Shown here: piece by piece, positions 2,476 through 62,468 of the stretch
Layout of the letters: each line of letters starts with the position of its first letter
Numbering within the stretch: position 1 is the stretch's first letter
Assembly: GCA_963718575.1 (NCBI GenBank)
Contig: OY970358.1
Coordinates: 514,172 to 578,171, forward strand
Direction of reading: 5' to 3'
Origin: an uncultured bacterium
Lineage (GTDB): Bacteria > Patescibacteriota > Minisyncoccia > UBA6257 > 2-01-FULL-56-20
Length of the DNA stretch: 64,000 nucleotides
Translations under genes and position numbers: made by a program
The notes under the pieces: generated by a model
What the model was told of the DNA's origin: nothing
The model's database searches: none
Seen by the model: the letters and a program-made list of their open reading frames with translations, nothing else

Positions 2476-2799
2476 TTGGCGAATATGGGAGGAAATGCAA
2501 TGGCGAGAACAGATTCGCAGTTGGAATCTTCCTTTGCTTCAATGCTGCTAGACGAGTCCTTAAAGGAAGTCCCCAGAGTGATGAAGCTGGGAAGCGTCTT
2601 TCACCTTGAAGCGCCAATCAACCTCGTAGGTCGAGAAGGGTTACATATTGCAGCGTTTTCCTGCCCAAAATGTGGGTTCATTGCTCTCATTACACGCAGA
2701 CAACTGTATGAAAAGGAGTTAATGATCTGCGGTGGAGATTTTTGTTCTGCGGAGTGGAAAATTGATGGCGAAGATATCGTTCTCCGCGAACCTCAGTAG
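2476..2799 (+). CDS. hypothetical small protein with CPKCG...C..C putative zinc-ribbon
   Basis: 107-aa ORF divergent from tyrS. Cys pair CPKCG plus downstream Cys residues. No family assigned. Confidence 0.35.
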   Translation: MANMGGNAMARTDSQLESSFASMLLDESLKEVPRVMKLGSVFHLEAPINLVGREGLHIAAFSCPKCGFIALITRRQLYEKELMICGGDFCSAEWKIDGEDIVLREPQ

Positions 2800-2875
2800 A
2801 AGAATTCTCCTACGCTCCAAAACCAAAAGCCCGACGCTTCGCGCGCCGGGCCATTTTTTACCTTGGCAAATCTTT

Positions 2876-3472
2876 TTAGGATTTCTTAATGATCTCGTCC
2901 ACCACGCCATAGGCCTTTGCTTCCTCCGCGGAAAGCCAGAAGTCGCGCTCGGTATCTTTTTCCACTTTCGCGAGCGCCTGTCCGGTGCTCTTCGCAAGGA
3001 TCTGGTTCAGCCGCGCCTTCGTTTTTAAAATCTGCCGCGCGGAGATCTCGATCTCCGTCGCCTGACCGCCGATCGAATCCACCGAGACCTGATGCAAAAG
3101 TATCTCCGAGTTCGGCAATGTAAACCGCTTGCCCTTCTTGCCGGCGGCGAGAAGGAACGACCCCATCGATGCCGCGATACCGACACACATCGTCGCCACA
3201 TCAGGCTTCACGTACTGCATCGTGTCGTAGATCGCCATGCCGGCCGTGACCGATCCGCCCGGGCTGTTGATATAGAGTTTGATATCTTTCTTCGGATCCT
3301 CGTGTTCCAAAAACAAGAGCTGCGCAATCACGGTGTTTGCAACCGCATCATTCACCGGGCCACCCAAAAAAATGATGCGTTCTTTGAGCAATCGCGAATA
3401 GATGTCATATGCCCGCTCACCGCTATTCGTCTTTTCGATGACCGTCGGGATCAGATACTGGCCTTCTTCCAT
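2876..3472 (-). CDS. clpP: ATP-dependent Clp protease proteolytic subunit
   Basis: Strong ClpP sequence ([11 protein letters not shown]..., catalytic Ser context [11 protein letters not shown], His context LLHQVS). Track ORF 2876-3571 has an N-terminal extension; the likely start is the internal Met (MEEGQYLIP...), placed by codon arithmetic from the track. Confidence 0.9.
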
Positions 3473-3492
3473 GGTTGGTTGTGTTTTAAAAA

Positions 3493-4035
3493 TTATTTCT
3501 TCAACTCTTCCAGTTTGTACACCGCCTCCGCCTTCTTTATTTCTTCCTTTGCCGCGGCCGCATCGCTCCATCCGGAGATCTTCACTTCTTTTTTCTGTAA
3601 GATCTTATACGTCTCAAAAAAATTCACGATCTCCTTTAAAAGATGCGGGTTGGACGTTTCGATATCTTTGATGTTATTGATTGCACTGAAGCGCGGATCG
3701 CCCGCCTGCACCGCAAGCACCTTCGCATCCGGCTCGCCGGAGTCGTTCATATTGAGCAATCCGATCGGGCGAACCTCCACAAGGCATCCGGTGAATAACG
3801 GATCGCCGCCCATCACGAGCGCATCTAAATGATCGCCGTCTTCGGAACGGGTACCCGGAATAAAACCATAATCCAGCGGATATTGATATGAGGCGTATAA
3901 AACGCGGTCCAATTTGAAGATGCCAAGCTCTTCATTAAACTCGTATTTGTTCTTGCTCCCTTTTGGGATCTCAATGATCACATTGACGATCTCCGGCGCT
4001 TTTTCTCCTAGTGGAATTTTTTCCCAGGGTGACAT
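3493..4035 (-). CDS. ppa: inorganic pyrophosphatase (family I)
   Basis: Family I PPase signature region (DGDHLDALV..., [11 protein letters not shown]). 180 aa. Confidence 0.9.
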
Positions 4036-4065
4036 AGTTTTATTTTCTTCTATTATATTACTTTT

Positions 4066-5337
4066 TTAGATTGCGATATCCTCCTTATCATCGGCCTCCG
4101 GCGCCGCGATCTGATCGCCACCGGAACTCCCTGCATCAACGAGTCCCGCAACGCCTCCTTCCACTTCTTCCTCCGGCCGCGTCTGCGAACGCACGTCGAT
4201 CTTCCACCCCGTCAGCTTTGCCGCGAGCCGCACGTTCTGTCCACCCTTTCCGATCGCGAGCGAGAGCTGGCTCTCCGGCACATACGCCCGCGCCTCGCGT
4301 CGCGGAAGGATCTCCACCTTTTCAACCTTTGCCGGCGACAGTGCATTCGCGATGAACTTCTCCGGGTCGTCGGACCACTCCGCAATGTCAATCTTCTCGT
4401 TGCCAAGCTCGTTGTTCACCGCCATCACGCGCGTACCGCGCTGGCCCACCAACGCTCCCACCGGATCGACGCCTTCGGCCTTTGATGCCGCCGCGATCTT
4501 CGTACGGTTTCCCGGCTCGCGCGCGATCGCCTTGATCTCAATCGCATCCTCCACCAATTCAGGAACCTCCATACGGAAAAGTTCTGCCACAAATTTCGGA
4601 TGCGAGCGGGAAAGGATGATGCCCGGGAGGCGCGTATCCTCCTGCACGGCAACCACTAAAAATCGCAATCGCTCCCCCGCCCGATAGTGTTCGCCCGGAA
4701 TCGATTCGTTGGCGAACATCACGCCGATCGTGCGGCCGAGATCCACAAAAATATTTCCGCGCTCGAAGCGCTGGATCACGCCGCTCACGATCTGCCCTTC
4801 GCGTCCGCGCCACTCGTTCAAAATGGAATCACGTTCGGACTCGCGCAACTTTTGCAGGATCACCTGCTTTGCGGTCTGCGCCGCAATGCGTCCAAAATCC
4901 TCGTGTGTTTCAAGCGGGAACATCATCTCCTCTCCCAGCTCAACATCTTTTTTGATCTTCTTCGCTTCATCAAACGTGATGTGTCGATCAGGATTGAACC
5001 GTGGAAGCTTCTGCTCATCATCCTCTTCGACCACCTCTTCCTTTTTCTTGGCTCCGTCTTTTTTTTCGACGGCCGCGCTCTCAGCCACTGACACCTCCTC
5101 TTCCTCTTCGACGAAACGCACCGTCGTATCATCTACAACGGTTTTGATCTGCCAGAAGTTCAGCTCACCGGTTTTTTGATCCATCTTGCACTTCACAACC
5201 TCACCGCGCTCGCCGTATTCTTTTTTGTACGCCGCCGCAATGGACGACTCGATAACGTCAAGAACCTTATCCGGATCCAATCCTTTTTCTTCCGCAACCT
5301 GCTTTAACGCTTTTGATAATTCTTTTATATTCAACAT
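4066..5337 (-). CDS. nusA: transcription termination/antitermination factor NusA
   Basis: NusA N-terminal domain, S1 region and tandem KH region (LAIGKGGQNVRLAAKLTGWKIDV) recognisable. Has an acidic insert and a C-terminal Gly-rich tail. 423 aa. Confidence 0.88.
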   Translation of the reverse strand: MLNIKELSKALKQVAEEKGLDPDKVLDVIESSIAAAYKKEYGERGEVVKCKMDQKTGELNFWQIKTVVDDTTVRFVEEEEEVSVAESAAVEKKDGAKKKEEVVEEDDEQKLPRFNPDRHITFDEAKKIKKDVELGEEMMFPLETHEDFGRIAAQTAKQVILQKLRESERDSILNEWRGREGQIVSGVIQRFERGNIFVDLGRTIGVMFANESIPGEHYRAGERLRFLVVAVQEDTRLPGIILSRSHPKFVAELFRMEVPELVEDAIEIKAIAREPGNRTKIAAASKAEGVDPVGALVGQRGTRVMAVNNELGNEKIDIAEWSDDPEKFIANALSPAKVEKVEILPRREARAYVPESQLSLAIGKGGQNVRLAAKLTGWKIDVRSQTRPEEEVEGGVAGLVDAGSSGGDQIAAPEADDKEDIAI

Positions 5338-5450
5338 TTATTTAGTTGTTATTAAGTTATATCTTTTAAAAAAAGCCGCTTGAAAGCGGACTTACATCGT
5401 TCCTCTATTATATTTGCACTATGCCTCTATGTCAAGAATATGGCTTATGA

Positions 5451-5822
5451 CTATAAATTTTCATAATGGCGAAGGTCGGCAAGTTTGCCATTTTTGAGCA
5501 CTATCGCGATAAAATCGATCTGCCACCCGCTCCCTTCATAAACCGCCCAAGGATGCCGCGCTAAAAATAAAGAACTCGCCCGAATGAGCTTATTAAGTTT
5601 TTCCCGACTAAGGTTATCCTCTGGCATAAATTCGATAGGATATCCTTCGCTATTGATCGTCTTTACCTCACAAAATATCAATAAACCATCCTTTCTTCGG
5701 GCAATTATATCTATTTCGTTGAATTTTTCCCTATGATTTCGTGCCAATATTAAATATCCATTGTTTAATAGATATTTATTAGCAATATCCTCTCCTATTT
5801 TGCCGGTTTCTATATTATTCAT
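5451..5822 (-). CDS. YraN-family (UPF0102) endonuclease-like protein
   Basis: Conserved N-terminal pattern GE.IA..YL...GY.IL.RN.R....EIDIIA typical of the YraN/UPF0102 family. 123 aa. Confidence 0.75.
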   Translation of the reverse strand: MNNIETGKIGEDIANKYLLNNGYLILARNHREKFNEIDIIARRKDGLLIFCEVKTINSEGYPIEFMPEDNLSREKLNKLIRASSLFLARHPWAVYEGSGWQIDFIAIVLKNGKLADLRHYENL

Positions 5823-5839
5823 AATTAAATATGAACGAT

Positions 5840-5992
5840 GAATTAAAATTGTGTTTTCCGTAAAACATATTAAAAATGTTTTTCAGCCAATTTTTGGCAA
5901 AAATTATTAAGAATTTAAAATATATACCTATTAATTGCCAATTTTTAATTTAAATAGCCGTCCCGAATTAAAATTGTGTTTTCCGTAAAACA
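5840..5992. repeat. two perfect 28-nt direct repeats (gaattaaaattgtgttttccgtaaaaca) about 125 nt apart in an AT-rich 460-nt spacer
   Basis: Seen in sequence at about 5840-5867 and 5965-5992. Each contains the near-palindrome gttttccgtaaaac. The spacer also holds the small hairpin gccaatttttggc. Confidence 0.7.
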
Positions 5993-6282
5993 ATTTTGAA
6001 AAACAATTTTGTTTTACAGTAGGTTTTATAGGTTTATCGGGTTTTGCCGTATTATTTTGATTTAATCCGGCAATCCGGCAAATCGCTCCTGTGAATTTGG
6101 CATCCTGTGAATTAAGACTATTCTGGAGTATTCCCCAAATGCCATCTTCGTCAGAGCTTCGACCGATAGGGCGATAGGAGGAACCCAGGAAGGCAACGGT
6201 GGGAGCAAAAACTATCTCAAGAGGTAAGCCAGTTTGAAATGCCAGACATATTGCCTTCCCGATCATCTCGCCGTATCCTTAT

Positions 6283-6621
6283 ATGACTATGAATCAAGAC
6301 CAATTAAAAGAATATAAAACGAAGTTGGAGAAAGAACGGGCGTTGCTCGCGGCGGAGATTGCGAACGATGAAAAGCCGGTGGACTTTGGAAGCGATATTG
6401 ATCATGGTGACGAAGAGAGCGACAAATCGGAACAGGTGGGGGATCAGCTCGCGGCGGCACAGGATTTGAAAAGTCGTTTGAATGAGATTGATATTGCGCT
6501 TGGAAAGATCCAGACTGGCACGTATGGAGTCTGTGAAAAATGCGGCAAGCCGATCGAGCACGAAATCCTCGCGATCGACCCGGAGTCGCGCTTTTGCAAG
6601 GAATGCAAATTGGAAAATTAA
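6283..6621 (+). CDS. DksA/TraR-family C4-type zinc-finger protein
   Basis: C-terminal CxxC-17-CxxC (GVCEKCGKPIEHEILAIDPESRFCKEC) with a preceding coiled-coil region, typical of DksA/TraR. Confidence 0.8.
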   Translation: MTMNQDQLKEYKTKLEKERALLAAEIANDEKPVDFGSDIDHGDEESDKSEQVGDQLAAAQDLKSRLNEIDIALGKIQTGTYGVCEKCGKPIEHEILAIDPESRFCKECKLEN

Positions 6622-6660
6622 TTTAGATTCTTTTAATGCTCGGCATGCGATAGTGCATGT

Positions 6661-8199
6661 ATGAGTAAAAAAATAGGACGATTATATTCTGCCGCGCTCG
6701 AAGGAATCGATGCAAAGATCATCGAGGTCGAAGCGGACATTAACGTCGGACTGCATTCGTTCAATATCGTCGGGCTCGGCGACAGGTCGCTTAACGAGGC
6801 GAAGGAGCGCGTCAATTCCGCGCTGAAAAATTCCGGCATTAAACCGCCGAATCGCGAGAATCGGAAGATCACGATCAATCTTGCGCCGGCGGATATAAAG
6901 AAGACCGGCTCACACTATGACCTTGCGATCGCTCTTGGATATCTCCTTGCAACGAAACAGATAAGAAACTTTATGTGCGCCGATAAGATATTTCTCGGCG
7001 AGCTTGCGCTCGACGGACGTCTTCGTCCGGTGAACGGGGCGCTGAATATTGCGGAGAAGGCGTCGCGCGAGGGATTTAAATATATATTTCTTCCCCGGCA
7101 GAACGCGAACGAGGCGGCGGCGATCGCGGAAATGAAAATAATTCCGCTGGATGACCTGCGCGATGCGATGGCGATCCTTGAAGAGAAAATAGATCGTGAG
7201 CCGGCTCGGTTCGATGAGGGGCTGGAGGGGGAACGATCTTTTTCGTCCGACGCGGATATCTCGGAAGTCAAAGGGCAGGAGAATGCGAAGCGGGCTCTTG
7301 AGATCGCGGCGGCGGGACAGCACAATGTTCTACTATTTGGCCCGCCCGGCGTCGGGAAAACATTTCTCTCGCGCGCGCTTGCGGGGATCATGCCTGACCT
7401 TACGACATTAGAGGCGATTGAGACAACGAAAATATGGAGTGCTGCAGGGCTCAGTCCCGGCGGCCTTATTCATAACCGTCCATTTCGGGTGCCGCACCAT
7501 ACGGCATCCATTACGGCGCTCGTCGGCGGAGGACAAGACCCGCGCCCGGGAGAGATAAGTCTTGCACACCACGGGGTTCTTTTTCTTGACGAACTTCCGG
7601 AGTTTCAAAGGAACGCGCTCGAGGCGTTGCGTCAGCCGCTCGAATCCGGCGTGGTGCACCTTGCGCGAACAAAACAAAGCGTGGCGTTTCCGGCAAAATT
7701 CATATTAGCGGCGGCCATGAATCCGTGCCCCTGTGGATTTTATGGCGATACAGAAAAAGAGTGTAAATGTTCCGCGTATGAGATCGTAAAATATCAAAAG
7801 AAAATTTCCGGGCCGTTGCTCGATCGCATCGATCTACAGGTGAAGGTGGGACGGGTTGCGATCGAGGAATTGAGAAAAGGAGAATATTGCGGCGGCGGAA
7901 AGAGCGGGGGAGGGAGCGCGGCGATAAAAACTCGCGTCGGTCGGGCGCGGACAATACAGATAGAAAGATACGGGAAACTCAATGCGGAGATGAGCTCCCG
8001 GGAAGCGCAAGAGACGACGAAGATGGACCAGGACGCCCGTGCATTCCTCGACACGCTCGACACCGGATATCTTTCTCCGCGAGGATATTACCGACTGCTC
8101 AAAGTTGCGCGCACCATCGCCGACTTGGAGGAGAAAGATGAGGTCACCTCACTCCATCTTGCGGAGGCATTCAGCTATCGATTAAAGGAAATACTTTAA
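6661..8199 (+). CDS. comM: Mg-chelatase-like AAA+ ATPase YifB/ComM
   Basis: N-terminal ChlI/Lon-like domain, Walker A LFGPPGVGKT, Walker B VLFLDELPEF, and a C-terminal Mg-chelatase domain. 512 aa. Confidence 0.9.
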   Translation: MSKKIGRLYSAALEGIDAKIIEVEADINVGLHSFNIVGLGDRSLNEAKERVNSALKNSGIKPPNRENRKITINLAPADIKKTGSHYDLAIALGYLLATKQIRNFMCADKIFLGELALDGRLRPVNGALNIAEKASREGFKYIFLPRQNANEAAAIAEMKIIPLDDLRDAMAILEEKIDREPARFDEGLEGERSFSSDADISEVKGQENAKRALEIAAAGQHNVLLFGPPGVGKTFLSRALAGIMPDLTTLEAIETTKIWSAAGLSPGGLIHNRPFRVPHHTASITALVGGGQDPRPGEISLAHHGVLFLDELPEFQRNALEALRQPLESGVVHLARTKQSVAFPAKFILAAAMNPCPCGFYGDTEKECKCSAYEIVKYQKKISGPLLDRIDLQVKVGRVAIEELRKGEYCGGGKSGGGSAAIKTRVGRARTIQIERYGKLNAEMSSREAQETTKMDQDARAFLDTLDTGYLSPRGYYRLLKVARTIADLEEKDEVTSLHLAEAFSYRLKEIL

Positions 8200-20677: not shown

Positions 20678-21562
20678 ATGGAAGAAGATAAAATAGACTT
20701 TTTCGATGCTGGAACGATAATGTTTTTTATTATGGCGCTGATCAGTGACGGCGCGTTTTTAGGTTTATTCGGCTTGCTTATTCCGAGAATAGGACTAGTA
20801 GTCGCAATGTTCGTCCTCGGCGCTCACTATTTCATCGGCATTATTGTCCTTTTTTATTTCTGGGGAAAGACTAAGGGCTTCGCGACAAAGGCAATTCTTG
20901 TGGCTGCATGGTTCCTGCCGTTGCCACTACTCACTATAGGATTATTCTTGGCGATTGTGCTTTCTACAAAACTCGGCCAAGAATTTATTGACTTGGCAGA
21001 AAAGGTGGCGATAAACGACCTAGAGGCGCTACCTCTCGCTGCCGCAGTTGTCGCAGCGCCTGAGACAGGCGGCGCGTCACTTGTAGCTGCCGGAGCTCTT
21101 GAGGGTGGTACAGTCGCTGCGGAAGGGGCGGTCATAGCAACTGAAGGTGCTGCCGTCGCAACAGAGGGAGCGGTGGCCGCAGGAGAGGCAGCAGCTGCAG
21201 CAACAGAAGGGGTGACAACCACCACTACCGAACTTGGAACAGAAGGAGTTGGGGCCGGCGCTGATTTAGGCGAGAACGCTGCCAGCGTCTTTAGTAACCC
21301 CTTGGATAATCCAGTTGGGGAGGCTGGGAAAGAGCTGGATATTCCATCGGAAGAGCAATTTCATGAAGGGGAAGGATTTGAAAACGAGACGCAAGAAGAA
21401 CCCGAGGGAGAAAGAGATGAAATGGATCATAATACCAGAAGGATAGTAAAAGGGGTGGAACGAGCCCAGAAGGTTGTTGATATTATTGATAATGTACGAC
21501 AACCTCAAGGGAATGACGAAGATGAGGATGAGCAGGCTGAAGATCTCGCGGACGCGGCGTAA
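20678..21562 (+). CDS. integral membrane protein (4 TM) with Ala/Gly/Thr-rich linker and acidic C-terminal tail (T4SS-cluster member)
   Basis: Four hydrophobic helices in the first ~120 aa, a low-complexity A/G/E/T segment, then a highly acidic C-terminus (DEDEDEQAEDLADAA). No family assigned. Confidence 0.45.
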   Translation: MEEDKIDFFDAGTIMFFIMALISDGAFLGLFGLLIPRIGLVVAMFVLGAHYFIGIIVLFYFWGKTKGFATKAILVAAWFLPLPLLTIGLFLAIVLSTKLGQEFIDLAEKVAINDLEALPLAAAVVAAPETGGASLVAAGALEGGTVAAEGAVIATEGAAVATEGAVAAGEAAAAATEGVTTTTTELGTEGVGAGADLGENAASVFSNPLDNPVGEAGKELDIPSEEQFHEGEGFENETQEEPEGERDEMDHNTRRIVKGVERAQKVVDIIDNVRQPQGNDEDEDEQAEDLADAA

Positions 21563-21605
21563 CACGCCATATTTCTGCCGTAATTTGCTATACTAAAGCA
21601 AAGAG

Positions 21606-22337
21606 ATGCTATCGCGAACCGTTTTTAAAAAAGTGGCGTTTCTATGCCTTATCGTCTTCGTTGCGTCGGGTGTTTTCCTTTCTTCAAAACCCGTGGAGGC
21701 GCATGCGCAAACCGCCAATGCATCATCACCAACGTTTCTTGTCACGTGGGGAACGACCGGGAGCTATATTCCATCATTTTATTTAGGGAAAGCACTGCCG
21801 ACGTATGGTTCGCAGATCACCGCATCACTTGAACTCATCTCGGCACAAGGAAAAGTGCTCGACCTCAGCGGGCAGACGATCTACTGGTATGTCGATGACA
21901 CGCTGGTGGGCGGTGGTGTTGGCGTGCAACACGTGACGTTTCCACCCGTCGGCGACGCGCCAAATTCCGTGGACCTTCGCGTGACGATTCCCAATTATAA
22001 CGGGGCATATCTTGTCCACGAGATAAGCATTCCGATGGTGCTCCCCAAAACGGTGATATACGCGCCGTATCCGAACGGACAATTTTCACAAAATCCCATC
22101 ACAGTGACCGGGCTTCCATATTTCTTTAACACCACAAGCACCTCGAATCTTTCCTACGCCTGGTCGGTGAATGGCCAAAACGGATCGAATACTGAAAATC
22201 CACAGCAAGCAGAGATCACGCTCCCGGAGGGCACACAGTCGGGGACAGGTCTCGCGATATCGCTCAATGTTACCAATCCGCAGGACTCTACGGTTGGCAC
22301 CGCATCCGTCAATTTAACCTACGAGAGCCAGCTATGA
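21606..22337 (+). CDS. secreted protein with signal peptide (T4SS-cluster member)
   Basis: N-terminal signal peptide (KVAFLCLIVFVASGVFLSSKPVEAHA) and a beta-rich mature region. Stop overlaps the next start (ATGA). Confidence 0.5.
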   Translation: MLSRTVFKKVAFLCLIVFVASGVFLSSKPVEAHAQTANASSPTFLVTWGTTGSYIPSFYLGKALPTYGSQITASLELISAQGKVLDLSGQTIYWYVDDTLVGGGVGVQHVTFPPVGDAPNSVDLRVTIPNYNGAYLVHEISIPMVLPKTVIYAPYPNGQFSQNPITVTGLPYFFNTTSTSNLSYAWSVNGQNGSNTENPQQAEITLPEGTQSGTGLAISLNVTNPQDSTVGTASVNLTYESQL

Positions 22338-22837
22338 TCGACATGAATTATTTATCTATTCCTGTTGCGCATGCGGTCTCGATCAGTATGGGAGTCCCCG
22401 GAACAAATCCGAACACGAGCAGCACACCGCCGGGCGCATTCGTCGCAAATGTTTACCAATTTTCGTTGGCGATCGCCGGAGTGCTCGCATTCGGCGTTGT
22501 GGTGTATGGCGGCGTGAAATATATGACGTCCGCGGGAAATCCATCAGGGCAAGGCGACGCAAAGGAATGGATCGAGGCAGCGCTCCTGGGGTTATTATTA
22601 TTAGCGGGAGCATATTTCATTCTGACCGTAGTCAATCCCCAGTTAACAAACCTCATACTGCCGCCGATCCCGGCGGCAAGCACACAAAGCTCCGCGCCCG
22701 GAGGATCAACTCCCACCCCTGCAGCTCCGCCGGTCACTTGTAATGGAACCACGTGTTCACCGGGACAAAGCTGTCTCCCCAGCACTGCTTTTTCAAATAC
22801 TTTCCAATGTTGTATAGGCACCATATCATGTAATTAA
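22334..22837 (+). CDS. VirB2/TrbC-like pilin candidate with Cys-rich C-terminal extension
   Basis: Signal-like N-terminus, then two hydrophobic helices separated by a short Gly-rich hydrophilic loop (FSLAIAGVLAFGVVVYGGVKYM - TSAGNPSGQGDAKEW - IEAALLGLLLLAGAYFILTVVNP). This is the hallmark topology of T4SS pilins. C-terminal segment is Cys-rich. Translationally coupled to the upstream gene. Confidence 0.45.
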   Translation: MIDMNYLSIPVAHAVSISMGVPGTNPNTSSTPPGAFVANVYQFSLAIAGVLAFGVVVYGGVKYMTSAGNPSGQGDAKEWIEAALLGLLLLAGAYFILTVVNPQLTNLILPPIPAASTQSSAPGGSTPTPAAPPVTCNGTTCSPGQSCLPSTAFSNTFQCCIGTISCN

Positions 22838-22841
22838 TCCT

Positions 22842-24182
22842 ATGAAACGCTATATTTATATCATCATCGGCATCATCGTCGCGGCGGCTATCGCGATATT
22901 GATCCTTTTCCTTTTAAAGGGGCGCTTAGGTAATTCAACTCCCGGCATAACGGGCAACACGACGAGCACCGGCTCGCTTCCGGTCGCGGGCACGCAGGGG
23001 AGTAACGGCACGGGGACGGGAAGCAGTACGACGCCGCTCGGCCTGTCGCCGATAGCCGGCAGCAGCACGCCGGCCGCGAGCAGCCAGATGTCTGTGCAAA
23101 ATTTTGGCGTGCTTTCAAGCGATCCCGTCCTTGATTATTTTATTGATACAAAGAACAACGTCACCGCCATCGAGCCGACCGGCGCCATCTTCACAATTTC
23201 AAATGGACAATCGGCCGTCATTAACTCCTCGACGATCAACGCGATCATCTCCGCCAGCTTTTCCTATGACGGCAAGATGACTTTGGTAAGTTATGGCACG
23301 GCCACCGATCCACAGGCGGCGATATTCAATGTTTCGACAGGCGTATGGACCGGGCTCCCTCAGGGGATGCTCTCGCCCCAGTGGTCGCCGGCAAATAACT
23401 ATCAGATCGCATATCTTGCGGCAACGGGGAACGGCAAACTCGCGCTCGCGACCATCAATGCGGCGAATCTTAAAGCGGGTCCGGTCACGCTGCTTTCGCT
23501 CAACGCGAACGACGTTGCACTCCAGTGGCCCACACAAAGCGAGTTTATTCTTTCGGATAAACCCACCGCGGAAAATGCGGGCTCGGTGTGGGTATTTAAT
23601 TCCGCCACAAACACACTGACTCCTCTTATCTATGAAGTTCCGGGCGCGGAAGGAATCTGGAGCCATAATGCGTCGATCCCGTACGGGTTGACCTTCTTTG
23701 CCAACCCCTCAGGACAAGGCGACACCCTGCAATTGCAGGCCATAACAGGAAATTTGCCGACTGAGGCGCTCAACTTCCTGACGTTGCCTTCCAAGTGCGC
23801 GTTTAACACGGAACTGATGCCGATATCTGCGCCAAGCTCGCCAACAACCGGAACTCCGACATCCACAGCATCCTCAGCTACAGCAAAGAAGGCGGTGCCC
23901 GTGATAGCCGCGGCGACATCCACCCCGTACCTCGCGCTCTACTGCGGCGTCCCGCGCAGCTCAAGCGGATTCTCTTCCGCGCAACTGCCGGACGCCTACA
24001 ACACGATGGCGCTCTTTACTTCGGATGATATCTATAAAATAAATACCGCGACGGGCGCGGATCAGGTGTTATGGAGCGATGCCACGGAGAATATGGATGC
24101 CTCCGATATGAAATTCTTCAACAACGCACTCTTCTTTATCAACCGTTATGACAGTAAACTATACGGCTTAACGTTTAATTAA
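22842..24182 (+). CDS. membrane-anchored protein with beta-propeller-like extracytoplasmic domain (T4SS-cluster member)
   Basis: N-terminal TM anchor (YIYIIIGIIVAAAIAILILFLL), an S/T/G linker, then a ~350-aa beta-rich domain with WSP and TolB-like repeats (inference). Confidence 0.45.
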   Translation: MKRYIYIIIGIIVAAAIAILILFLLKGRLGNSTPGITGNTTSTGSLPVAGTQGSNGTGTGSSTTPLGLSPIAGSSTPAASSQMSVQNFGVLSSDPVLDYFIDTKNNVTAIEPTGAIFTISNGQSAVINSSTINAIISASFSYDGKMTLVSYGTATDPQAAIFNVSTGVWTGLPQGMLSPQWSPANNYQIAYLAATGNGKLALATINAANLKAGPVTLLSLNANDVALQWPTQSEFILSDKPTAENAGSVWVFNSATNTLTPLIYEVPGAEGIWSHNASIPYGLTFFANPSGQGDTLQLQAITGNLPTEALNFLTLPSKCAFNTELMPISAPSSPTTGTPTSTASSATAKKAVPVIAAATSTPYLALYCGVPRSSSGFSSAQLPDAYNTMALFTSDDIYKINTATGADQVLWSDATENMDASDMKFFNNALFFINRYDSKLYGLTFN

Positions 24183-24184
24183 AA

Positions 24185-24245
24185 AGCTGTAGCTGTTGAG
24201 CGCTTGAGCGTTCCTACGCGGTAGCGAAACAGCTATGGCTTTTTA
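24185..24245. repeat. copy 1 of conserved hairpin-embedded element (core TGAGCGCTTGAGCGTTCCTACGCGGTAGCGAAA) with T-run, between convergent genes
   Basis: Seen in sequence. Outer stem agctgt/acagct, conserved ~33-nt core, then ttttt. See findings. Confidence 0.6.
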
Positions 24246-24247
24246 AT

Positions 24248-24685
24248 TTATTCCAATATCGGCTTGATAATGACGTAGCGTTCTTTTCCTTCGCCGGCGC
24301 TTTCTGTCTTCACTTCAGGATGCACCGCGAGCTCCATGTGTACCAGCCGGCGCTCGTAGGAGTTCATTGCGGGGAGCGCAACCTCCGCCTTTGTGGTTGC
24401 CGCCTTTTTTGCCGCAGCGCGCGCGAGTTCCGCGATCAAACGCTCGCGGTCGTGGCGGTAATTATTGACGTCGAGAAATATCGCTTCGGCCTGGTTCTTT
24501 TTTGCGACCATCTGGAGAATGTGATTCACCGCATCCACGATCGCGGGGAGGTTCTCCTTCACCATCTCGGCGTCTTCATAAATAAAAACCGAGCCCCGGC
24601 GTTCATCTATCTTTATCTCTAAGTGATAATCCTTAAATCCGATGAGGTCCAGCGTCTTTTTAATGAATGATTCCCAGTTGTCCAT
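24248..24685 (-). CDS. jag: Jag/KhpB-like RNA-binding protein (R3H domain)
   Basis: C-terminal R3H motif (SYERRLVHMELAVHPEVKTESAGEGKERYVIIKP). Sits downstream of yidC in the conserved rpmH-rnpA-yidC-jag arrangement. Confidence 0.8.
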   Translation of the reverse strand: MDNWESFIKKTLDLIGFKDYHLEIKIDERRGSVFIYEDAEMVKENLPAIVDAVNHILQMVAKKNQAEAIFLDVNNYRHDRERLIAELARAAAKKAATTKAEVALPAMNSYERRLVHMELAVHPEVKTESAGEGKERYVIIKPILE

Positions 24686-28748: not shown

Positions 28749-30892
28749 CTAACTCCCGTATCCATTCGCCTGCGCCCAGTTTTCCACACCCGTTTCCCAA
28801 TTGTTATATTCAGGGTCTGTTGCCGGGTTTGTGGGATCTGGCCCGGTCGGATCGCTTTTATCAACATAGTAGAGGATGTTGTGGACTTGCCCGTTGATGA
28901 CGTATTGCCCCGTGAGGACTGGCTTTGTGGCGGTCGTCGGGGCGGGCGGCGTGAAGGTTGTGTTTGGCACTTCGGGCAGCGCTTGCGTCATGAACGCGTT
29001 CCACATCGGAACCGCCGCCAAAATACTTGAACCCGCTTTTTGCATCGGTGCGTCGTTATTGTTTCCTGCCCAGACGCCGACGACGATCGACGGCGTGTAT
29101 CCCATCGCCCACGCATCGGTGTAGTTGTTCGATGTTCCGGTCTTGAGCGCCACGTCATAACCGGGGAAGACGGTGAGGCCCTGGCTTCCGCCCATAAGTG
29201 GCGCCCGCGCCGCGGCGTCGGATAAAATATCATTGATGAGATTGACCGACTGCGCGTCCGCGACCTGGGTTGTTTGATCCTGATATGATTCCAGCGTGTT
29301 GCCATTCGCGTCGGTCACGGAGAGCACCATCGTCTGCGCGTGTTTCACGCCTTGATCGGCAAGCACAGAATATGCTTCGGTGAGATCGATAAGGTGTACT
29401 GCGCCGCCGCCGAGGACGAGTGAGAGGCCGTACTGCGCCGGGTCGGTGAGTGTGGTGAGGCCGAAGTTGTATGCGTTCTGGATCGCGTTGTGTCTCGCCC
29501 ACAAGGTAAAGCGCTTTTACCGCCGGCACGTTCACGGACTGTGCCAGCGCGTCGCGGATGGTAAGCGGGCCTGCAAACGTACCCTCAAAGTCCTGTGGGT
29601 GGAAACAATTCTTATCGGTTGAATTGAAGTCAGGGACTGCCGGGCATTCGGCGTCAATGCTGAACTCCGTGGGAACATCGAATAATATCGTGTCCGGCGT
29701 GTAGCCCATTTGGAAGGCGGTCATATAGACGAATGGTTTGAGCGATGACCCCGGTTGGCGAAGGCCTTGCGTTGCCACGTCGAAGTTGCCGTCATTCGCG
29801 GTGTCGAAGTAATTTGCAGAGCCAACGAGAGCGAGAATCTGCCCCGTGGCGGGGTCTTGTACCACCATCGCGGCGTTCGTCGCTTGATAGAGTTGCTGTG
29901 TTGCGTGCGACGCCCGCAGTGACCGCGGCTTCTGCCTGTTGTTGCATCGTCCAGTTGAGCGTCGTGATCACCTTAAGGCCGCCGTTATCAACCTCATTCT
30001 CGCCATATTTCTGCACGAGATAATTTTCCACCGCCATCACGAAGTGCGGCGCGCGGATTCCCGAGCCGCTCGCGGTCTGTGGCTGAAAAACGATCTTAAA
30101 ATTCTGTGCTGCGGTGAGCTGGGCTTTTGTGATCTTGCCGGTGCTATACATCTGCTGGAGCACCAACTGCTGGCGTTGGAGCAGTTCATCTACGTGCGTG
30201 CCGTACGGGTAATAATACGTCGGCGCCTGCGGTAATGCGGCGAGCACCGCGCTCTGCGCGATGTTGAGCTGATCGACCGGCACGCCGAAGTAATCTTCGG
30301 CCGCCTCACCGACGCCCGAGATGTTCGGCCCGTAGGGAACCTCATTTAAATAAAGCGCCAAGATCTGATCTTTTGAATAATATTCATTAAGCTTGACCGC
30401 AAGGATGAACTCGCGGATCTTGCGCGAGAGCGTCTGGTTGAGCGTCAGGAATGCGGTGCGCGCGAGCTGTTGGGTGATCGTCGATCCGCCCTCCGCAAAG
30501 GAATGGGTGGTGATATCAACATAGAGCGCCCGGAAGATGCCTTTTATATCGAACGCCGGCTCATTATAAAAATTCTGGTCTTCGATGGCGATCGTGGCAT
30601 CCTTCACGCTCTGCGGAATCTGATCAAACGGCACGAGCGTCCGATGGTCGCCATTATCAACATCGTAAAGCAGTACGGTGCCCGTCCGGTCGTAGATCTT
30701 TGTGGACTGGCTGATCTGCTGGCTGCCGATCTCCTGGATAGACGGCACGGTCTTTGCAAAATAGAGCACCGCGATGAAAAGTGCGATCACGCATGCGGCG
30801 ATGACGACCCCCGTTATCTGGAGGATCTTTATATACTTCTTTTTCTTTCGCCCGGACTTCGACTGAGAATTATTTTTAAGGTCGTTGTTCAT
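28749..30892 (-). pseudogene. class A penicillin-binding protein (PBP1A-like transglycosylase/transpeptidase) interrupted by two frameshifts
   Basis: Three consecutive minus-strand ORFs in different frames carry, in order, the GT51 transglycosylase motifs (EDQNFYNE, GGSTITQQL) in 29792-30892, the transpeptidase SSLKP (SxxK) and SVN motifs in 29230-29868, and KTGT in 28749-29504. Either a pseudogene or indel errors. Confidence 0.7.
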
Positions 30893-30970
30893 AAAAACGT
30901 CTCTTTATTTTACCTCTTTTCACTTCTTTCTTGTATTCTCTCCCTCTTCTTATTCACGGAGAGATAAAAA

Positions 30971-31036
30971 ATACCCACCGCTGTTGAGCGAGTGGGCGTT
31001 CTTACGCCGGAGCGAGACAGCGGTGGGTATTTTTTA
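30971..31036. repeat. copy 2 of conserved hairpin-embedded element (outer stem atacccaccgctgt/acagcggtgggtat, 14 bp perfect; core TGAGCGAGTGGGCGTTCTTACGCCGGAGCGAGA) plus T-run; likely terminator downstream of ruvC
   Basis: Seen in sequence. Confidence 0.65.
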
Positions 31037-31267
31037 TTAAGCTATTCTAACGGCTCTGCGTCGTCTGTTCCGGCGTCGCCGGCATCGGGAGCATCATCGT
31101 CTTCGTCCTCGTCGGTGTCATCGAGGTCGGTGTCGGGGCTGCTGGTTTCAATCGGGTCTTTTTCCTCGTCGGTCAACCCTGCCCACTCGAACTTAAACGG
31201 AAATAATTCGGTTACCATAGTTACAAATAATTAAACGACCTTTTTTATTTTCAACCAGTATATTGTA

Positions 31268-36411: not shown

Positions 36412-37434
36412 ATGCCAAAAACACCCCCGACAACCAACAACGCCAACGGCTCTGGCAATAAAGAGGACCCGAATATCGATCTCACCCTCCGACCTACCGA
36501 GTGGGATGAATACATTGGTCAGGAAAAAATAAAAGATAATTTGAAGACTATTTTGAGCGCCGCGAAAAAGCGTGGCGAGTCCGCTGACCATCTTTTATTT
36601 TCCGGCCCGGCAGGTCTTGGGAAAACAACACTCGCGTATCTCGTCGCGCGAGAGCTTGGCGGGTTGATAAAAACGACCTCCGGCCCGGCGCTTGAAAAGG
36701 CAGGCGACCTCGCCGCAGTGCTCACCAATTTAACGCCCGGCGAAATTTTATTTATCGATGAGGCACACCGCATTAATCCGATGATCGAAGAAGTGTTGTA
36801 TCCGGCGATGGAGGCGCGCAAGCTGCACCTTGTCGTTGGCAAAGGGCCGTCGGCGCGGACGCTCTCGCTCGATCTGCCGCCGTTCACGCTGATCGCGGCG
36901 ACGACTCGGGAGAATTTACTTTCGCAACCGTTGCGCTCGCGCTTTGGCGCGACGCTGCGTCTTGGCTATTACACGCCGGATGATATTAAAAGCATCTTAA
37001 AACGCTCGGCGGCGATATTGGGCGTGGAAGCAAAGCCGGAGGCAATCGATATTCTCGCGCGCGCGTCGCGCGGGACGCCGCGCGTGGCAAACCGTCTGCT
37101 CCGCCGCGCGCGCGATTTTGCGGAAGTGCACGGCGAGAGCGTGATCGACGAGGACGCGGCGCGGAAGACGCTCGCGATGCTCGAGATCGATGAGGTGGGT
37201 CTTGAGCCGCAAGACCGCGAGCTTCTTATGACAATCATCGAGAAGTTTCACGGCGGACCCGTCGGCATCAACACCATCGCCGCCGCGCTTGCGCAGGACC
37301 GCGGCGCGATCGAAGACATCTATGAGCCGTATCTGATGACGCTCGGGTTTTTACAGCGCTCTTCTGCGGGGCGGATTGTTCTGCCTGCGGCGTATCGGCA
37401 TCTGAAGATAAAAGGATACGAGGAGTTGTTGTAG
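36412..37434 (+). CDS. ruvB: Holliday junction branch migration helicase RuvB
   Basis: Walker A GPAGLGKTTLA, Walker B ILFIDEAHR, sensor and arginine-finger regions, and a C-terminal winged helix. The start is the internal Met MPKTPP of track ORF 36370-37434. Confidence 0.93.
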   Translation: MPKTPPTTNNANGSGNKEDPNIDLTLRPTEWDEYIGQEKIKDNLKTILSAAKKRGESADHLLFSGPAGLGKTTLAYLVARELGGLIKTTSGPALEKAGDLAAVLTNLTPGEILFIDEAHRINPMIEEVLYPAMEARKLHLVVGKGPSARTLSLDLPPFTLIAATTRENLLSQPLRSRFGATLRLGYYTPDDIKSILKRSAAILGVEAKPEAIDILARASRGTPRVANRLLRRARDFAEVHGESVIDEDAARKTLAMLEIDEVGLEPQDRELLMTIIEKFHGGPVGINTIAAALAQDRGAIEDIYEPYLMTLGFLQRSSAGRIVLPAAYRHLKIKGYEELL

Positions 37435-61141: not shown

Positions 61142-61173
61142 GCTTTCATAGTACTCTTTAAGATTAAAATAAA

Positions 61174-61238
61174 ATACCCCTCCCTTTGAGCGAGTGGACG
61201 TTCCTACGTTGGAGCGAAAAGGGAGGGGTATTTTATTT
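61174..61238. repeat. copy 3 of conserved hairpin-embedded element (outer stem atacccctccctt/aagggaggggtat; core TGAGCGAGTGGACGTTCCTACGTTGGAGCGAAA) plus T-run, directly downstream of infC
   Basis: Seen in sequence. Confidence 0.65.
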
Positions 61239-61804: not shown

Positions 61805-62398
61805 ATGGACGAAAATCCCATAACTCACCCGGGCGTGCCCGAAGAGGTCTATCATACGATGGGGAAGAAGACGTTTTGGATCTTTTTCCTGGAGCGTATT
61901 CATGCGGCGTTCATTTTACTTCTGCTTGCGATTGCGCTCTTTATCGTGAGCCGGCAGGCGTTCCTTGCGACGACGCAGTTCGGCGACCTTACGCGCTACG
62001 CCGTGGCCGCGTGGGAGCTCTGCGGGCTGCTCTTTGTCATCGTGCTTGCGATCTCGCTCTTTGTGGCATGGCTTGTCTACTCGACGTATAAATTTTCGCT
62101 CGGCGACGATTCGCTAAAAATAAAGCGCGGAATTTTAAACAAAGAAGAGGTGGCGATCCCGTACCGGCAGATCCAGGACGTGGACATCAAGCGCGATCTC
62201 TCGTTTCAGCTGATCGGGCTCAGTAAGATCATCATCATCACTGCGGGCCACGAAGAGGACGAAAAACCCGGCGACGATGACACGGAAGGCATCCTTCCCG
62301 CGCTCGACAAGGATCTTGCCGAATGGCTCCAGGCGGAATTACTCAAGCGCGCGAACGTGCAAAAGGTGACCGAAGAAGCTCCTGTGCTACAAAAATAA
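61805..62398 (+). CDS. membrane protein with bacterial PH (bPH_2 / YdbS-YdbT-like) domain
   Basis: Two-TM hairpin (FILLLLAIALFIV..., LLFVIVLAISLFVAWLV) followed by a bPH-like segment (YKFSLGDDSLKIKRGILNKEEVAIPYRQIQDVDIKRDLSFQLIGLSKI) and an acidic tail. Confidence 0.6.
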   Translation: MDENPITHPGVPEEVYHTMGKKTFWIFFLERIHAAFILLLLAIALFIVSRQAFLATTQFGDLTRYAVAAWELCGLLFVIVLAISLFVAWLVYSTYKFSLGDDSLKIKRGILNKEEVAIPYRQIQDVDIKRDLSFQLIGLSKIIIITAGHEEDEKPGDDDTEGILPALDKDLAEWLQAELLKRANVQKVTEEAPVLQK

Positions 62399-62468
62399 AA
62401 ACCCCATTGCCGTTGAGCGAGTGGACGTTCTTACGTCGGAGCGAAACAGGGATGGGGTTTTTATTTTA
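62393..62468. repeat. copy 4 of conserved hairpin-embedded element (outer stem aaaaccccat.../...atggggtttt; core TGAGCGAGTGGACGTTCTTACGTCGGAGCGAAA) plus T-run, between convergent genes
   Basis: Seen in sequence. Confidence 0.65.

What the first reader, a model, noticed from the sequence alone, without database searches (positions are those of the whole stretch)
30971..31036. Family of four hairpin-embedded conserved ~33-nt cores (TGAGCGAGTGGACGTTCYTACGYYGGAGCGAAA) with compensatory stem variation, each followed by a T-run
Copies seen at 24185-24245, 30971-31036, 61174-61238 and 62393-62468.

The outer stems (7-14 bp) differ completely in sequence between copies but stay complementary within each copy. 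The inner hairpin of the core shows covariation: gACGT-tcyt-ACGTc in two copies versus gGCGT-tcyt-ACGCc in the other two. The flanking GAGCGA motifs are invariant. All copies are in the same orientation on the plus strand and sit at gene 3' ends, often between convergent genes.

Compensatory changes argue for selection on RNA or DNA secondary structure, not just recent duplication. Possible roles: a specialised bidirectional intrinsic terminator, a protein-binding motif (GAGCGA repeats) on a terminator scaffold, a REP/MITE-like mobile repeat, or a small ncRNA family. I do not recognise it as a known family.
Basis: seen in the sequence. Interest (0 to 1): 0.8.

Follow-up and report, generated by a model that had tools for sequence, protein, structure and literature searches.

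The report
Conserved cap on CPR terminator hairpins
Four long transcription-terminator hairpins in this candidate-phyla-radiation (Paceibacterota) genome carry the same ~34-base structured cap. It belongs to an undescribed repeat family whose cap is far better conserved than its stem; what the cap does beyond helping to stop transcription is not known.

Summary
The window holds exactly four copies, all on the + strand, of a 30-34 nt core at the tip of a 72-76 nt A-run/stem/T-run palindrome (0 expected by chance).

The same element occurs in at least 57 distinct copies. All lie in soil or peat Paceibacterota/Minisyncoccia (CPR) contigs, at least 3-5 per ~0.8 Mb genome, always intergenic. There is no Rfam, phage or plasmid match.

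- **Base:** the lower stem is a symmetric bidirectional intrinsic terminator.
- **Cap:** the core plus about 9 bp of upper stem evolves as a strand-specific fold. Inner pairs covary (A-U 41, G-C 15, G-U 1; G-C 38, G-U 13, A-U 3). G·T outnumbers A·C 40 to 6, on the GAGCGAG strand only. That strand folds about 6 kcal/mol better in 57 of 57 copies.
- **Conservation:** the core is about 90% identical between any two copies. The arms are 70% identical at orthologous sites and 45% at other sites.
- **Turnover:** orthologous sites show flips, loss, decay, or replacement by other cap families (B, A').
- **Orientation:** it is not tied to the upstream gene. At tandem sites the cap is mostly antisense to transcription (about 11 sites against 3), which is unexplained.

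Best reading: a new low-copy REP-like terminator family with a conserved recognition or stabilising RNA cap. The cap's specific function is unknown.

The parts
24177..24248 (+). Type-A hairpin copy 1 (divergent sub-type). Arms 24177-24197 / 24228-24248; core 24198-24227, GAGCGCTTGAGCGTTCCTACGCGGTAGCGA. Lies between convergent genes: the 446-aa ORF (+, ends 24182) and jag/R3H (-, ends 24248).
30963..31038 (+). Type-A hairpin copy 2 (the copy named in the finding). Arms 30964-30984 / 31017-31037, 100% complementary; core 30986-31015, with a G-C inner pair. Lies downstream of a 58-aa acidic ORF (-, 31042-31218) and upstream of the transglycosylase gene (-, 29792-30892). The core is antisense to both.
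61167..61238 (+). Type-A hairpin copy 3. Arms 61167-61187 / 61218-61238, 100% complementary; core 61188-61217. Lies directly after infC/IF3 (-, 61233-61658) and 26 nt before the 137-aa ORF (-, 60728-61141), which is inserted in the infC-rpmI-rplT operon. The core is antisense to the flow of transcription.
62392..62467 (+). Type-A hairpin copy 4. Arms 62392-62414 / 62445-62467, 87% complementary; core 62415-62444. Lies between convergent bPH_2 (+, 61805-62398) and a LiaF-TM-like 69-aa ORF (-, 62466-62675), about 340 nt upstream of tmRNA (62781-63097).

Best explanation
Each copy is a two-part element about 75 nt long.

**Part 1, the base.** It is a 12-20 bp G+C-rich stem flanked by an A-run and a T-run that pair with each other. 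It acts as a Rho-independent terminator for RNA polymerase arriving from either side. This is inferred from its form and position and has not been shown experimentally.

**Part 2, the cap.** It consists of about 9 bp of upper stem plus the 30-34 nt core: UU-GAGCGAGUG-[GRCGU-NNNN-ACGYY]-GGAGCGA-RA. The cap is kept by purifying selection as a single-stranded fold of the GAGCGAG strand only. It comprises:
- a 5-bp inner hairpin with a free loop;
- two GAGCGA boxes facing each other, giving two G-C pairs flanked by G·A/A·G mismatches;
- closing U-A, U·G or C-G pairs.

The near-invariant box sequence goes well beyond what stability needs. The most likely role is therefore a sequence-specific recognition or stabilising module in RNA, probably bound by a lineage-specific factor. 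Such a module would make the terminator structurally polar: very stable when transcribed in the GAGCGAG sense, and carrying an open C/U-rich internal loop in the opposite sense.

**Turnover.** The family behaves as a low-copy dispersed repeat. Copies persist at orthologous sites for long periods, but they are also flipped, lost, eroded or replaced by other cap families.

**Status of each claim:**
- Shown: the anatomy, distribution, covariation, strand asymmetry and turnover.
- Inferred: termination, action at the RNA level, and factor binding.
For: **Terminator form and place**
- All four window copies and all 57 distinct copies have the A-run/stem/T-run form.
- They abut the stop codons or 3' ends of genes, tRNAs and tmRNA at about -12 to +13 nt.
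- The lower stem shows no strand asymmetry: G·T 6 against A·C 5, and the mean ΔΔG between strands is -0.5 kcal/mol.

**The cap is selected as a fold on one strand**
- Pair 27-38: AU 41, GC 15, GU 1, no mismatch.
- Pair 26-39: GC 38, GU 13, AU 3.
- Pair 16-47: UA 34, UG 13, CG 9.
- Covariation score 0.63, against 0.17 in shuffles and 0.15 or less when the pairing is slid by 1-3 columns.
- G·T against A·C is 40 to 6 in the upper 9 bp. After collapsing similar copies it is 21 to 8, p = 0.024.
- The apical module is 6.0 kcal/mol more stable on the GAGCGAG strand in 57 of 57 copies.

**The sequence constraint is specific to the cap**
- Core identity is 0.91 between orthologous copies and 0.90 between non-orthologous copies. 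Arm identity is 0.70 and 0.45.
- Positions left free in the search patterns (A22, G23, U24, G41) are still at least 90% conserved.
- There is no concerted evolution within genomes. Paralogous copies carry different variants.

**Turnover**
- The core is flipped at the bPH/LiaF site in L014, and at four further convergent sites.
- Presence or absence varies at the infC, tmRNA and jag sites.
- L121 holds a decayed copy.
- Other caps occupy the same sites in other genomes.

**Not a known family:**
Against: - No transcript data exist, so neither termination nor RNA-level action of the cap has been demonstrated.
- At about 11 independent tandem sites the cap is antisense to the only gene that runs into it. 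These include lexA, tRNA-Val, tRNA-Pro, tRNA-Thr, tRNA-Arg, tmRNA, infC and the 58-aa ORF. At those sites the favoured strand would be transcribed only by counter-flow polymerases. Only about 3 sites have the sense orientation. This fits poorly with a module that works inside the upstream gene's own mRNA.
- The boxes never covary. Rare variants support two different pairing registers: L124:2269-2330 supports 17-46/18-45, whereas window copy 1, L088, L111 and L123 support 22-43/23-42/24-41. The fold of the boxes is therefore unresolved.
- G·T wobble is equally compatible with folded single-stranded DNA.
- The box invariance is partly imposed by the search patterns used.
Confidence: 0.5

Rival explanations
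1. Selfish or neutral dispersed repeat, REP/MITE-like. The whole palindrome is copied to new intergenic sites by a transposase or by recombination. It is tolerated there because it terminates transcription. The cap is conserved because the mobilising enzyme needs it.
For: - The family is multi-copy, with a loose arm consensus across non-orthologous sites.
- Orthologous sites show presence/absence, flips and swaps.
- Breaks in gene order coincide with hairpins: the 137-aa ORF and its hairpin follow infC in the window but follow tmRNA in L014, and the S8 peptidase neighbour changes between L012 and L043.
- Strand-specific folding is typical of elements handled as single-stranded DNA.
Against: - Only about 3-5 copies per genome were found.
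- Copies stay at orthologous sites while their arms drift to about 70% identity, yet the cap stays at about 91%. This implies purifying selection at each locus, not recent copying.
- No target-site duplication and no conserved terminal repeats were seen.
- No transposase lies next to any copy in about 590 kb of sequence searched with the covariance model.
- There were no hits in viral contigs, phages or plasmids.
Confidence: 0.17
2. DNA-level site. The cap, extruded as a cruciform or exposed as single-stranded DNA, is recognised by a structure- and sequence-specific DNA protein such as a recombinase, a nuclease or a nucleoid or partition factor. It would mark recombination or chromosome-organisation sites.
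For: - Orientation is independent of the flanking gene at convergent sites.
- G·T wobble is as acceptable in DNA hairpins as in RNA.
- Copies cluster on chromosomes: four within 38 kb beside oriC (dnaA, rpmH) in the window; 93, 190 and 269 kb of 829 kb in OY970354.1; 171, 179 and 260 kb of 726 kb in CAWDZM01.
- Rearrangement breakpoints fall at hairpins.
- A Xer-type recombinase gene sits directly next to copies in L004 and L088.
Against: - The core is not a dyad of the Xer/dif or parS kind. Only the inner 4-5 bp are palindromic; the boxes are direct repeats.
- Orientation shows no relation to GC or GC3 skew: 14 of 26 loci are positive, mean about 0.
- Two copies 750 nt apart can be in opposite orientation (L041).
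- The strict placement at the tip of a terminator is not required for a DNA site.
Confidence: 0.12
3. The functional RNA is the reverse complement, 5'-UUUCGCUCCGACGUAAGAACGUCCACUCGCUCAA. Two C/U-rich UCGCUC loops would be displayed on the terminator of the upstream gene, for example for a KH/R3H-type protein, for Rho, or for pairing with a G/A-rich RNA.
For: - In about 45 of 54 copies a gene, tRNA or tmRNA on the opposite strand ends at the hairpin, so this is the version most often present in abundant transcripts.
- Tandem sites are about 11 to 3 in favour of this orientation, and it is consistent across genomes at the lexA (3/3), tRNA-Val (3/3), tmRNA (3/3) and infC (2/2) sites.
Against: - On this strand the variable pairs are C·A mismatches, not wobbles: 40 against 6 in the upper stem and 13 against 1 at the inner pair.
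- Its fold is about 6 kcal/mol weaker in 57 of 57 copies.
- tRNA and tmRNA trailers are discarded after processing.
- Five convergent sites flip freely between genomes.
Confidence: 0.1
4. Independent small-RNA genes: each hairpin is the body and terminator of its own short transcript.
For: - The fold is strand-specific, with a U-tail on that strand.
- Several copies have 60-270 nt of unassigned sequence on their 5' side.
Against: - No conserved -35/-10 promoter elements lie at a fixed distance upstream.
- Some copies lie only 7-26 nt from the start codon of the neighbouring gene.
- About half are simply the 3' end of a + strand gene.
Confidence: 0.04

Closest known systems
REP/BIME elements of enterobacteria (including BIMEs with a central IHF site) and other palindromic intergenic repeats such as the Correia elements of Neisseria
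   Same: They are dispersed intergenic palindromes at gene 3' ends, often between convergent genes. They act as terminators or 3'-UTR stabilisers, and their positions vary between strains (bioRxiv 10.64898/2026.03.23.713779; the rest is from my own knowledge).
   Different: REP and Correia elements have hundreds of copies, conserved arms or terminal repeats, and a dedicated transposase (RAYT) or target-site duplications. Here there are about 3-5 copies per genome, the arms vary, the centre is conserved, and no transposase was seen.
Ordinary bidirectional intrinsic terminators
   Same: They share the G+C-rich stem between an A-tract and a T-tract, the position after stop codons, and compensatory evolution of the stem with G·U intermediates (PMC5381666).
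   Different: Ordinary terminators have 3-8 nt loops with no conserved sequence, as do six others in this window. These carry a 30-34 nt sequence-conserved, strand-specific cap.
Integron attC sites
   Same: They are imperfect palindromes at gene 3' ends. Selection acts on the fold of one DNA strand rather than on the duplex sequence. They lie next to variable genes.
   Different: attC has conserved outer R/L boxes and a variable centre, occurs in arrays next to intI/attI, and has extrahelical bases. Here the layout is the reverse, and there is no array and no IntI nearby.
Terminator-embedded RNA modules and terminator-associated Rfam motifs (for example the HMP-PP 'thiS' riboswitch, PMC6478431; Bacillaceae-1 with RUCCU loops, from my own knowledge)
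   Same: A conserved structured RNA shares its helix with a terminator stem. Many copies have a C/U-rich apical loop (UCCU or UCUU).
   Different: Those motifs lie in 5' leaders or are free-standing RNAs with a fixed orientation. This one lies at 3' ends, has a variable orientation and variable loop letters, and matches no Rfam model.

Membership tests
Rho-independent (intrinsic) terminator | G+C-rich stem-loop immediately followed by a U-tract in the transcript | tested here: met
   All four window copies and all 57 distinct copies have it, on both strands.
Rho-independent (intrinsic) terminator | Located just downstream of a transcription unit | tested here: met
   A gene, tRNA or tmRNA 3' end lies at about -12 to +13 nt of the hairpin on at least one side in about 50 of 54 copies. 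One copy (L043) lies between divergent genes.
Rho-independent (intrinsic) terminator | Transcripts actually end at the U-tract | not testable with these tools
   No transcriptome data are available for these uncultured organisms.
REP/REPIN (RAYT-associated) | High copy number (tens to hundreds) with conserved palindromic arms | tested here: not met
   Pattern matches per MAG were 3, 3, 3 and 4, with one more found by covariance model. Non-orthologous arms are only 45% identical, while the centre is 90% identical.
REP/REPIN (RAYT-associated) | A cognate Y1 transposase (RAYT) in the genome | not tested
   Whole genomes could not be fetched. None appears in the gene tables of the fetched loci.
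MITE | Conserved terminal inverted repeats and target-site duplication | tested here: not met
   The ends are A/T runs of variable length and sequence, and no direct repeat flanks the copies.
Integron attC | Conserved R''/L''...L'/R' boxes at the base with a variable centre, in cassette arrays next to intI | tested here: not met
   The layout is the opposite (conserved centre), the copies are single, and no IntI lies nearby.
Any Rfam family | Score at or above a family's gathering threshold | tested here: not met
   The window and 16 loci gave only tRNA, tmRNA, rRNA and a group I intron. The best sub-threshold hit on the element is RT-19, at 18 bits against a threshold of 78.
Kink-turn (k-turn) RNA motif | A 3-nt bulge 5' of tandem sheared G·A/A·G, with the canonical helix directly abutting the A on the other strand | tested here: not met
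   This was checked by inspecting the alignment. Pairs 14-49, 15-48 and 16-47 are paired, so there is no bulge at the outer tandem. At the inner tandem the three extra nucleotides (GUG) lie 3' of the GA, on the wrong strand.
Hammerhead ribozyme | CUGANGA ... GAAA core at a three-helix junction with a cleavage-site helix I | tested here: not met
   Only two helices are present. There is no helix between the U-U and the first box, and the first box is GAGCGAG, not CUGANGA.
parS or dif-type dyad DNA site | Two inverted protein-binding arms around a short spacer | tested here: not met
   Only the inner 4-5 bp are dyad-symmetric, and the outer boxes are direct repeats. A separate parS-like palindrome occurs elsewhere in the window.

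The most novel reading that the evidence does not exclude
The cap is a sequence- and strand-specific docking module for a factor found only in this CPR lineage. Grafted onto terminators, it could do one of two things. It could make them polar insulators, strong against counter-flow transcription but leaky with the flow. Or it could mark hot spots where flanking genes are exchanged, working like an attC site turned inside out (conserved centre, free arms). It would be one of several interchangeable cap families (A, A', B and others) that form a previously unrecognised layer of 3'-end signals in ultra-small genomes.
Probability: 0.15. Interest if true: 0.8.

Novelty: new variant of a known kind. 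Interest (0 to 1): 0.55.

Why it matters
- **Poorly charted territory.** CPR/Patescibacteria genomes are tiny and streamlined, the organisms are uncultured, and almost nothing is known about their non-coding signals.
- **A strong constraint on non-coding sequence.** A 34-nt element stays about 90% identical at more than 15 independent loci while its own stem drifts. This is among the stronger non-coding constraints one can expect in such genomes, so it points to a specific partner or mechanism.
- **An unusual layout.** The arrangement of conserved tip, free stem, strand-specific fold and evolutionarily flippable orientation differs from REP, MITE and attC elements. The presence of several exchangeable cap families suggests a general design rule for terminators in this lineage.
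- **Practical value.** The family gives a ready covariance model for annotating these genomes, a natural test bed for polar termination, and a marker for rearrangement breakpoints.
- **The ordinary outcome.** If the cap only stabilises long palindromes or speeds hairpin folding, the finding is a tidy new terminator variant and nothing more.

Tried and rejected
1. **Known RNA family.** Rfam at gathering and E-value thresholds gave nothing.
2. **Fragment of tRNA, rRNA or tmRNA.** Only 7-8 nt chance words matched.
3. **Phage or plasmid origin.** There were 0 viral contig hits, 0 phage hits and one chance plasmid hit.
4. **k-turn, hammerhead, sarcin-ricin-like, T-loop or CsrA-type GGA loop.** The layout or the variable loop letters do not fit. 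This was judged by inspecting alignment A2.
5. **parS or dif-like DNA dyad.** The boxes are direct repeats, not inverted repeats.
6. **Orientation tied to replication.**
   - In the window all four copies lie on the + strand to the right of oriC.
   - GC and GC3 skew across 26 loci show no relation.
   - CAWDZM01 has the order -,+,- and L041 has +,- within 750 nt.
7. **Mutational explanation of the G·T excess.** Deamination of the non-template or lagging-strand template predicts either the opposite sign or a link to skew. Neither was seen.
8. **Own promoter (sRNA gene).** No conserved motif lies upstream.
9. **Association with one gene family.**
   - The neighbours are diverse housekeeping genes: infC, rpmE, lexA, ftsH, fmt, sodA, yidC/jag, xerC, tRNAs and tmRNA.
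   - The 137-aa ORF travels with a hairpin in two genomes, but the gene in the same slot in L119 is unrelated.
10. **Cassette model.** The variable gene slot between infC and rpmI is filled with or without a hairpin.
11. **Deciding the pairing register of the GAGCGA boxes.** Rare variants support both registers.
12. **Literature.** Three full-text searches found no description of this element.

Full report
**1. Observation**

- A degenerate 30-nt pattern hits 24198, 30986, 61188 and 62415, all on the + strand. It gave no hit in 100 dinucleotide-preserving shuffles.
- A covariance model run over the whole window without filters finds these four at 69-87 bits. Nothing else scores above 19 bits, and those weaker hits are ordinary hairpins.
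- Each core is the tip of a 72-76 nt palindrome. The arms are 21-23 nt, 87-100% complementary, and include an A-run on the 5' side and a T-run on the 3' side.
- As RNA the + strand folds at -34 to -46 kcal/mol, with z between -6.8 and -8.9.

- The stems are longer than stated.
- Both flanks carry a homopolymer run, so the hairpin is symmetric.
- Copy 1 is a divergent sub-type (GAGCGC...GTAGCGA), so the boxes are not invariant.

**2. Setting**

The window is the origin region of a small genome.
- It carries rpmH-rnpA-yidC-jag facing dnaA-dnaN at 24.2-28.7 kb, a tmRNA at 62781-63097 and a tRNA-Arg.
- Relatives are annotated as Candidatus Paceibacterota or Minisyncoccia, which belong to the candidate phyla radiation.
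- Copy 1 lies between the convergent 446-aa ORF and jag.
- Copy 4 lies between convergent bPH_2 and a LiaF-like ORF.
- Copy 2 follows a 58-aa ORF and precedes a transglycosylase gene, both on the minus strand.
- Copy 3 follows infC and precedes a 137-aa ORF, again both on the minus strand.

For copies 2 and 3 the + strand reading of the core is therefore antisense to the only gene that runs into the hairpin.

**3. Distribution**

- A scan of one genome per species, with the inner stem left free, gave 23 hits. Sixteen were hairpin-embedded copies in seven Paceibacterota/Minisyncoccia MAGs. Seven were chance hits without a hairpin in unrelated phyla, about the number expected.
- Viral contigs gave none.
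- A looser pattern on metagenome contigs gave 90 stretches, mostly from peat, bog and soil.
- Together these yield 57 distinct copies.
- Covariance-model searches over about 590 kb of fetched loci add a few pattern-free members: L014:3431-3488, L119:9394-9455, L123:4609-4670, L113:150-211, L111:604-665 and L124:2269-2330.
- Pattern matches per MAG were 3, 3, 3 and 4. The last MAG has a fifth copy found by the model.
- Rfam, phage and plasmid searches and three literature searches give no match.

**4. Structure**

On the 57-copy alignment A2 the hairpin is strongly supported.
- 90-98% of cells are paired, and 18 of 23-25 pairs have double changes.
- The covariation score is 0.63, against 0.17 in shuffles and 0.15 or less when the pairing is slid.
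- Compensation in the outer stem is what any terminator shows (PMC5381666). The informative part is the cap.
  - Inner pair 27-38 is A-U 41, G-C 15, G-U 1, with no mismatch.
  - Pair 26-39 is G-C 38, G-U 13, A-U 3.
  - The pair next to the boxes (16-47) is U-A 34, U·G 13, C-G 9.
- The tetraloop is free: UCUU, UCCU, GCUU, GAUU, UCGU, UCCG and UCGA all occur.
- The two GAGCGA boxes can face each other as G-C/C-G flanked by G·A/A·G. Rare variants support two different registers, so their fold is unresolved.

**5. Strand specificity**

- Counted from the core outwards, G·T against A·C on the GAGCGAG strand is 40 to 6 in the first nine pairs. It is 6 to 5 in pairs 10-20.
- After lumping similar copies the count is still 21 to 8, p = 0.024.
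- The apical module (core ±9) is 6.0 kcal/mol more stable on that strand in 57 of 57 copies. The lower stem is symmetric.
- The base therefore serves both directions, while the cap is selected as a fold of one strand only.
- A mutational cause is unlikely. Orientation is unrelated to GC or GC3 skew. Deamination of the non-template strand predicts the opposite sign.

**6. Conservation pattern**

| Comparison | Core (34 nt) identity | Arm identity |
|---|---|---|
| Orthologous copies | 0.91 | 0.70 |
| Non-orthologous copies | 0.90 | 0.45 |

- Paralogous copies within one genome carry different variants, so identity is not kept by copy correction.
- Each locus holds its cap to the same consensus. 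That implies purifying selection on the sequence itself, beyond what pairing requires.

**7. Context and orientation**

- Neighbours are diverse housekeeping genes and stable RNAs: infC, rpmE, lexA, ftsH, fmt, sodA, yidC/jag, xerC, several tRNAs and tmRNA.
- In about 45 of 54 copies a feature on the strand opposite to the GAGCGAG reading ends at the hairpin. In about 27 of 54 a feature on the same strand does.
- At convergent sites the cap flips between genomes. Five sites show both orientations: bPH/LiaF, jag/446-aa ORF, rpmE, and two unnamed gene pairs.
- At tandem sites the orientation is consistent across genomes and mostly antisense to transcription.
  - Antisense: lexA 3/3, tRNA-Val 3/3, tmRNA 3/3, infC 2/2, plus tRNA-Pro, tRNA-Thr, tRNA-Arg and others, about 11 sites.
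  - Sense: about 3 sites (xerC, pepO, yidC-jag).
- This bias is suggestive (binomial p about 0.06) and unexplained.
- No conserved promoter lies upstream.

**8. Turnover and sister families**

- The infC site carries type A in the window and in L119. It carries a different cap (type B, AATCCCGAAGGGTGAGCCC, whose complement carries a UNCG tetraloop) in L124. It carries no long hairpin in L017, L117, L121 and L122.
- The jag/446-aa ORF site carries type A in the window, flipped type A in L062, and type B in L009.
- The bPH/LiaF site carries type A in seven genomes, a decayed remnant in L121, other caps in L117, L118, L122 and L124, and nothing in L119.
- A related family, A' (GACGGUCACGUUCCUACGUGGCAUUUCCGUC), keeps only the inner hairpin.
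- Of 96 distinct terminator-like hairpins in the fetched loci, 58 are type A, 20 have plain small loops, and the rest carry other caps. This sample was chosen for type A, so the proportions are biased.
- In the window itself there are four capped hairpins and about six plain ones.

**9. Interpretation**

The base is a bidirectional intrinsic terminator. This is inferred from its form and position.

The cap is a conserved, strand-specific, sequence-specific module.
- I consider an RNA recognition or stabilising module, probably with a lineage-specific partner, the most likely reading. It would make the hairpin structurally polar.
- The antisense bias at tandem sites argues against a role inside the upstream gene's own transcript. 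It leaves room for a role against counter-flow transcription or for a DNA-level role.

Rivals:
- A REP-like selfish repeat. The per-locus constraint and the low copy number argue against it.
- A single-stranded DNA or cruciform site for a recombinase or nuclease. There is no dyad and no replichore polarity, but copies do cluster near oriC and sit at rearrangement breakpoints.
- Function of the complementary C/U-rich RNA. This fits the orientation bias but is contradicted by the wobble and energy asymmetry.
- Independent sRNA genes. There is no promoter and no room for one at some copies.

**10. Verdict**

- This is a real and statistically solid element, not previously described as far as these searches can tell.
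- It is best filed as a new variant of the known kind 'palindromic intergenic repeat doubling as a terminator', with an inverted conservation pattern (tip conserved, arms free).
- It sits within a broader, unreported habit of this CPR lineage of capping terminators with exchangeable modules.
- The function of the cap remains open.

Noticed in passing
L009:3199-3291 and 3887-3983; L124:3385-3463; L027:5813-5886; L041:3235-3310; also L061 and L102: A second cap family ('type B') on equally long terminator hairpins: GAAC-AATCCCGAAGGGTGAGCCC-GTTC. Its complement carries a C(UUCG)G tetraloop that varies to UCCG, still a UNCG loop. It occupies sites that hold type A in other genomes (the infC site and the jag site).
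   Followed up: partly
L075:1900-1962; L101:1069-1131; L124:7174-7238: A sister family ('A'') shares only the inner hairpin ACGUUCCUACGU with type A. It replaces the GAGCGA boxes by a Watson-Crick helix GACGG/CCGUC and an asymmetric loop GCAUUU. The inner closing pair is C-G or U·G.
   Followed up: partly
L011:19-95 = L104:3200-3276; L033:1011-1089 (flipped). Also L004:475-550 and L124:4600-4680: Further recurrent caps sit on long A/T-flanked hairpins: GGACC-TAGCGAGCAGACTCGAT-GGTCC, and GGCC-G(A)ATTATTCTTAT...-GGCC. Capped terminators therefore seem to be a general habit of this lineage.
   Followed up: no
window 60728-61141; compare L117-L124 between infC and rpmI: The infC-rpmI-rplT operon has a variable slot just after infC. 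Different genomes hold unrelated small ORFs there: 137 aa in the window, then 105+74 aa, an ASCH-domain ORF, 133 aa, 135 aa and 112 aa. L118 holds a diversity-generating retroelement (RVT_1 plus bAvd) and other genes. L117 holds nothing.
   Followed up: partly
L014:3240-3414: A G+C-rich, apparently structured stretch of about 170 nt lies between the tmRNA-side hairpin and the next gene. It shows compensatory-looking changes relative to L041, and one segment resembles the tmRNA 3' end in reverse. It may be an integration scar at ssrA. No Rfam hit.
   Followed up: partly
window 5852-5867 and 5977-5992: Two identical copies of TGTTTTCCGTAAAACA lie 125 nt apart. Each has three mismatches to the canonical parS palindrome. 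They may be parS sites or an operator pair.
   Followed up: no
L018:3543-3741 (within 23S rRNA 2711-7384): A group I intron lies inside the 23S rRNA gene of a related MAG (Rfam, 68 bits). In the same locus a type-A hairpin lies between tRNA-Pro and the 23S gene.
   Followed up: no
L118:14866-14955 and L121:7695-7786: Two long hairpins share a 52-nt cap (…GAACGGTCATATCTSGAAASGGATATGGGTGTCG…) in which a small inner stem-loop varies (CTGGAAACGG vs CTCGAAAGGG). This is another unassigned structured element.
   Followed up: no
window 36526-36601: An A/T-flanked hairpin with a 52-nt tip that contains TTGAGCGCC...GGCGAGTCC. It resembles the type-A boxes only faintly (9.8 bits with model R2).
   Followed up: no
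window 20678-24182: A run of ORFs without Pfam hits, plus one weak T4SS-pilin match, sits immediately beside the rpmH-jag/oriC region and ends at hairpin copy 1.
   Followed up: no
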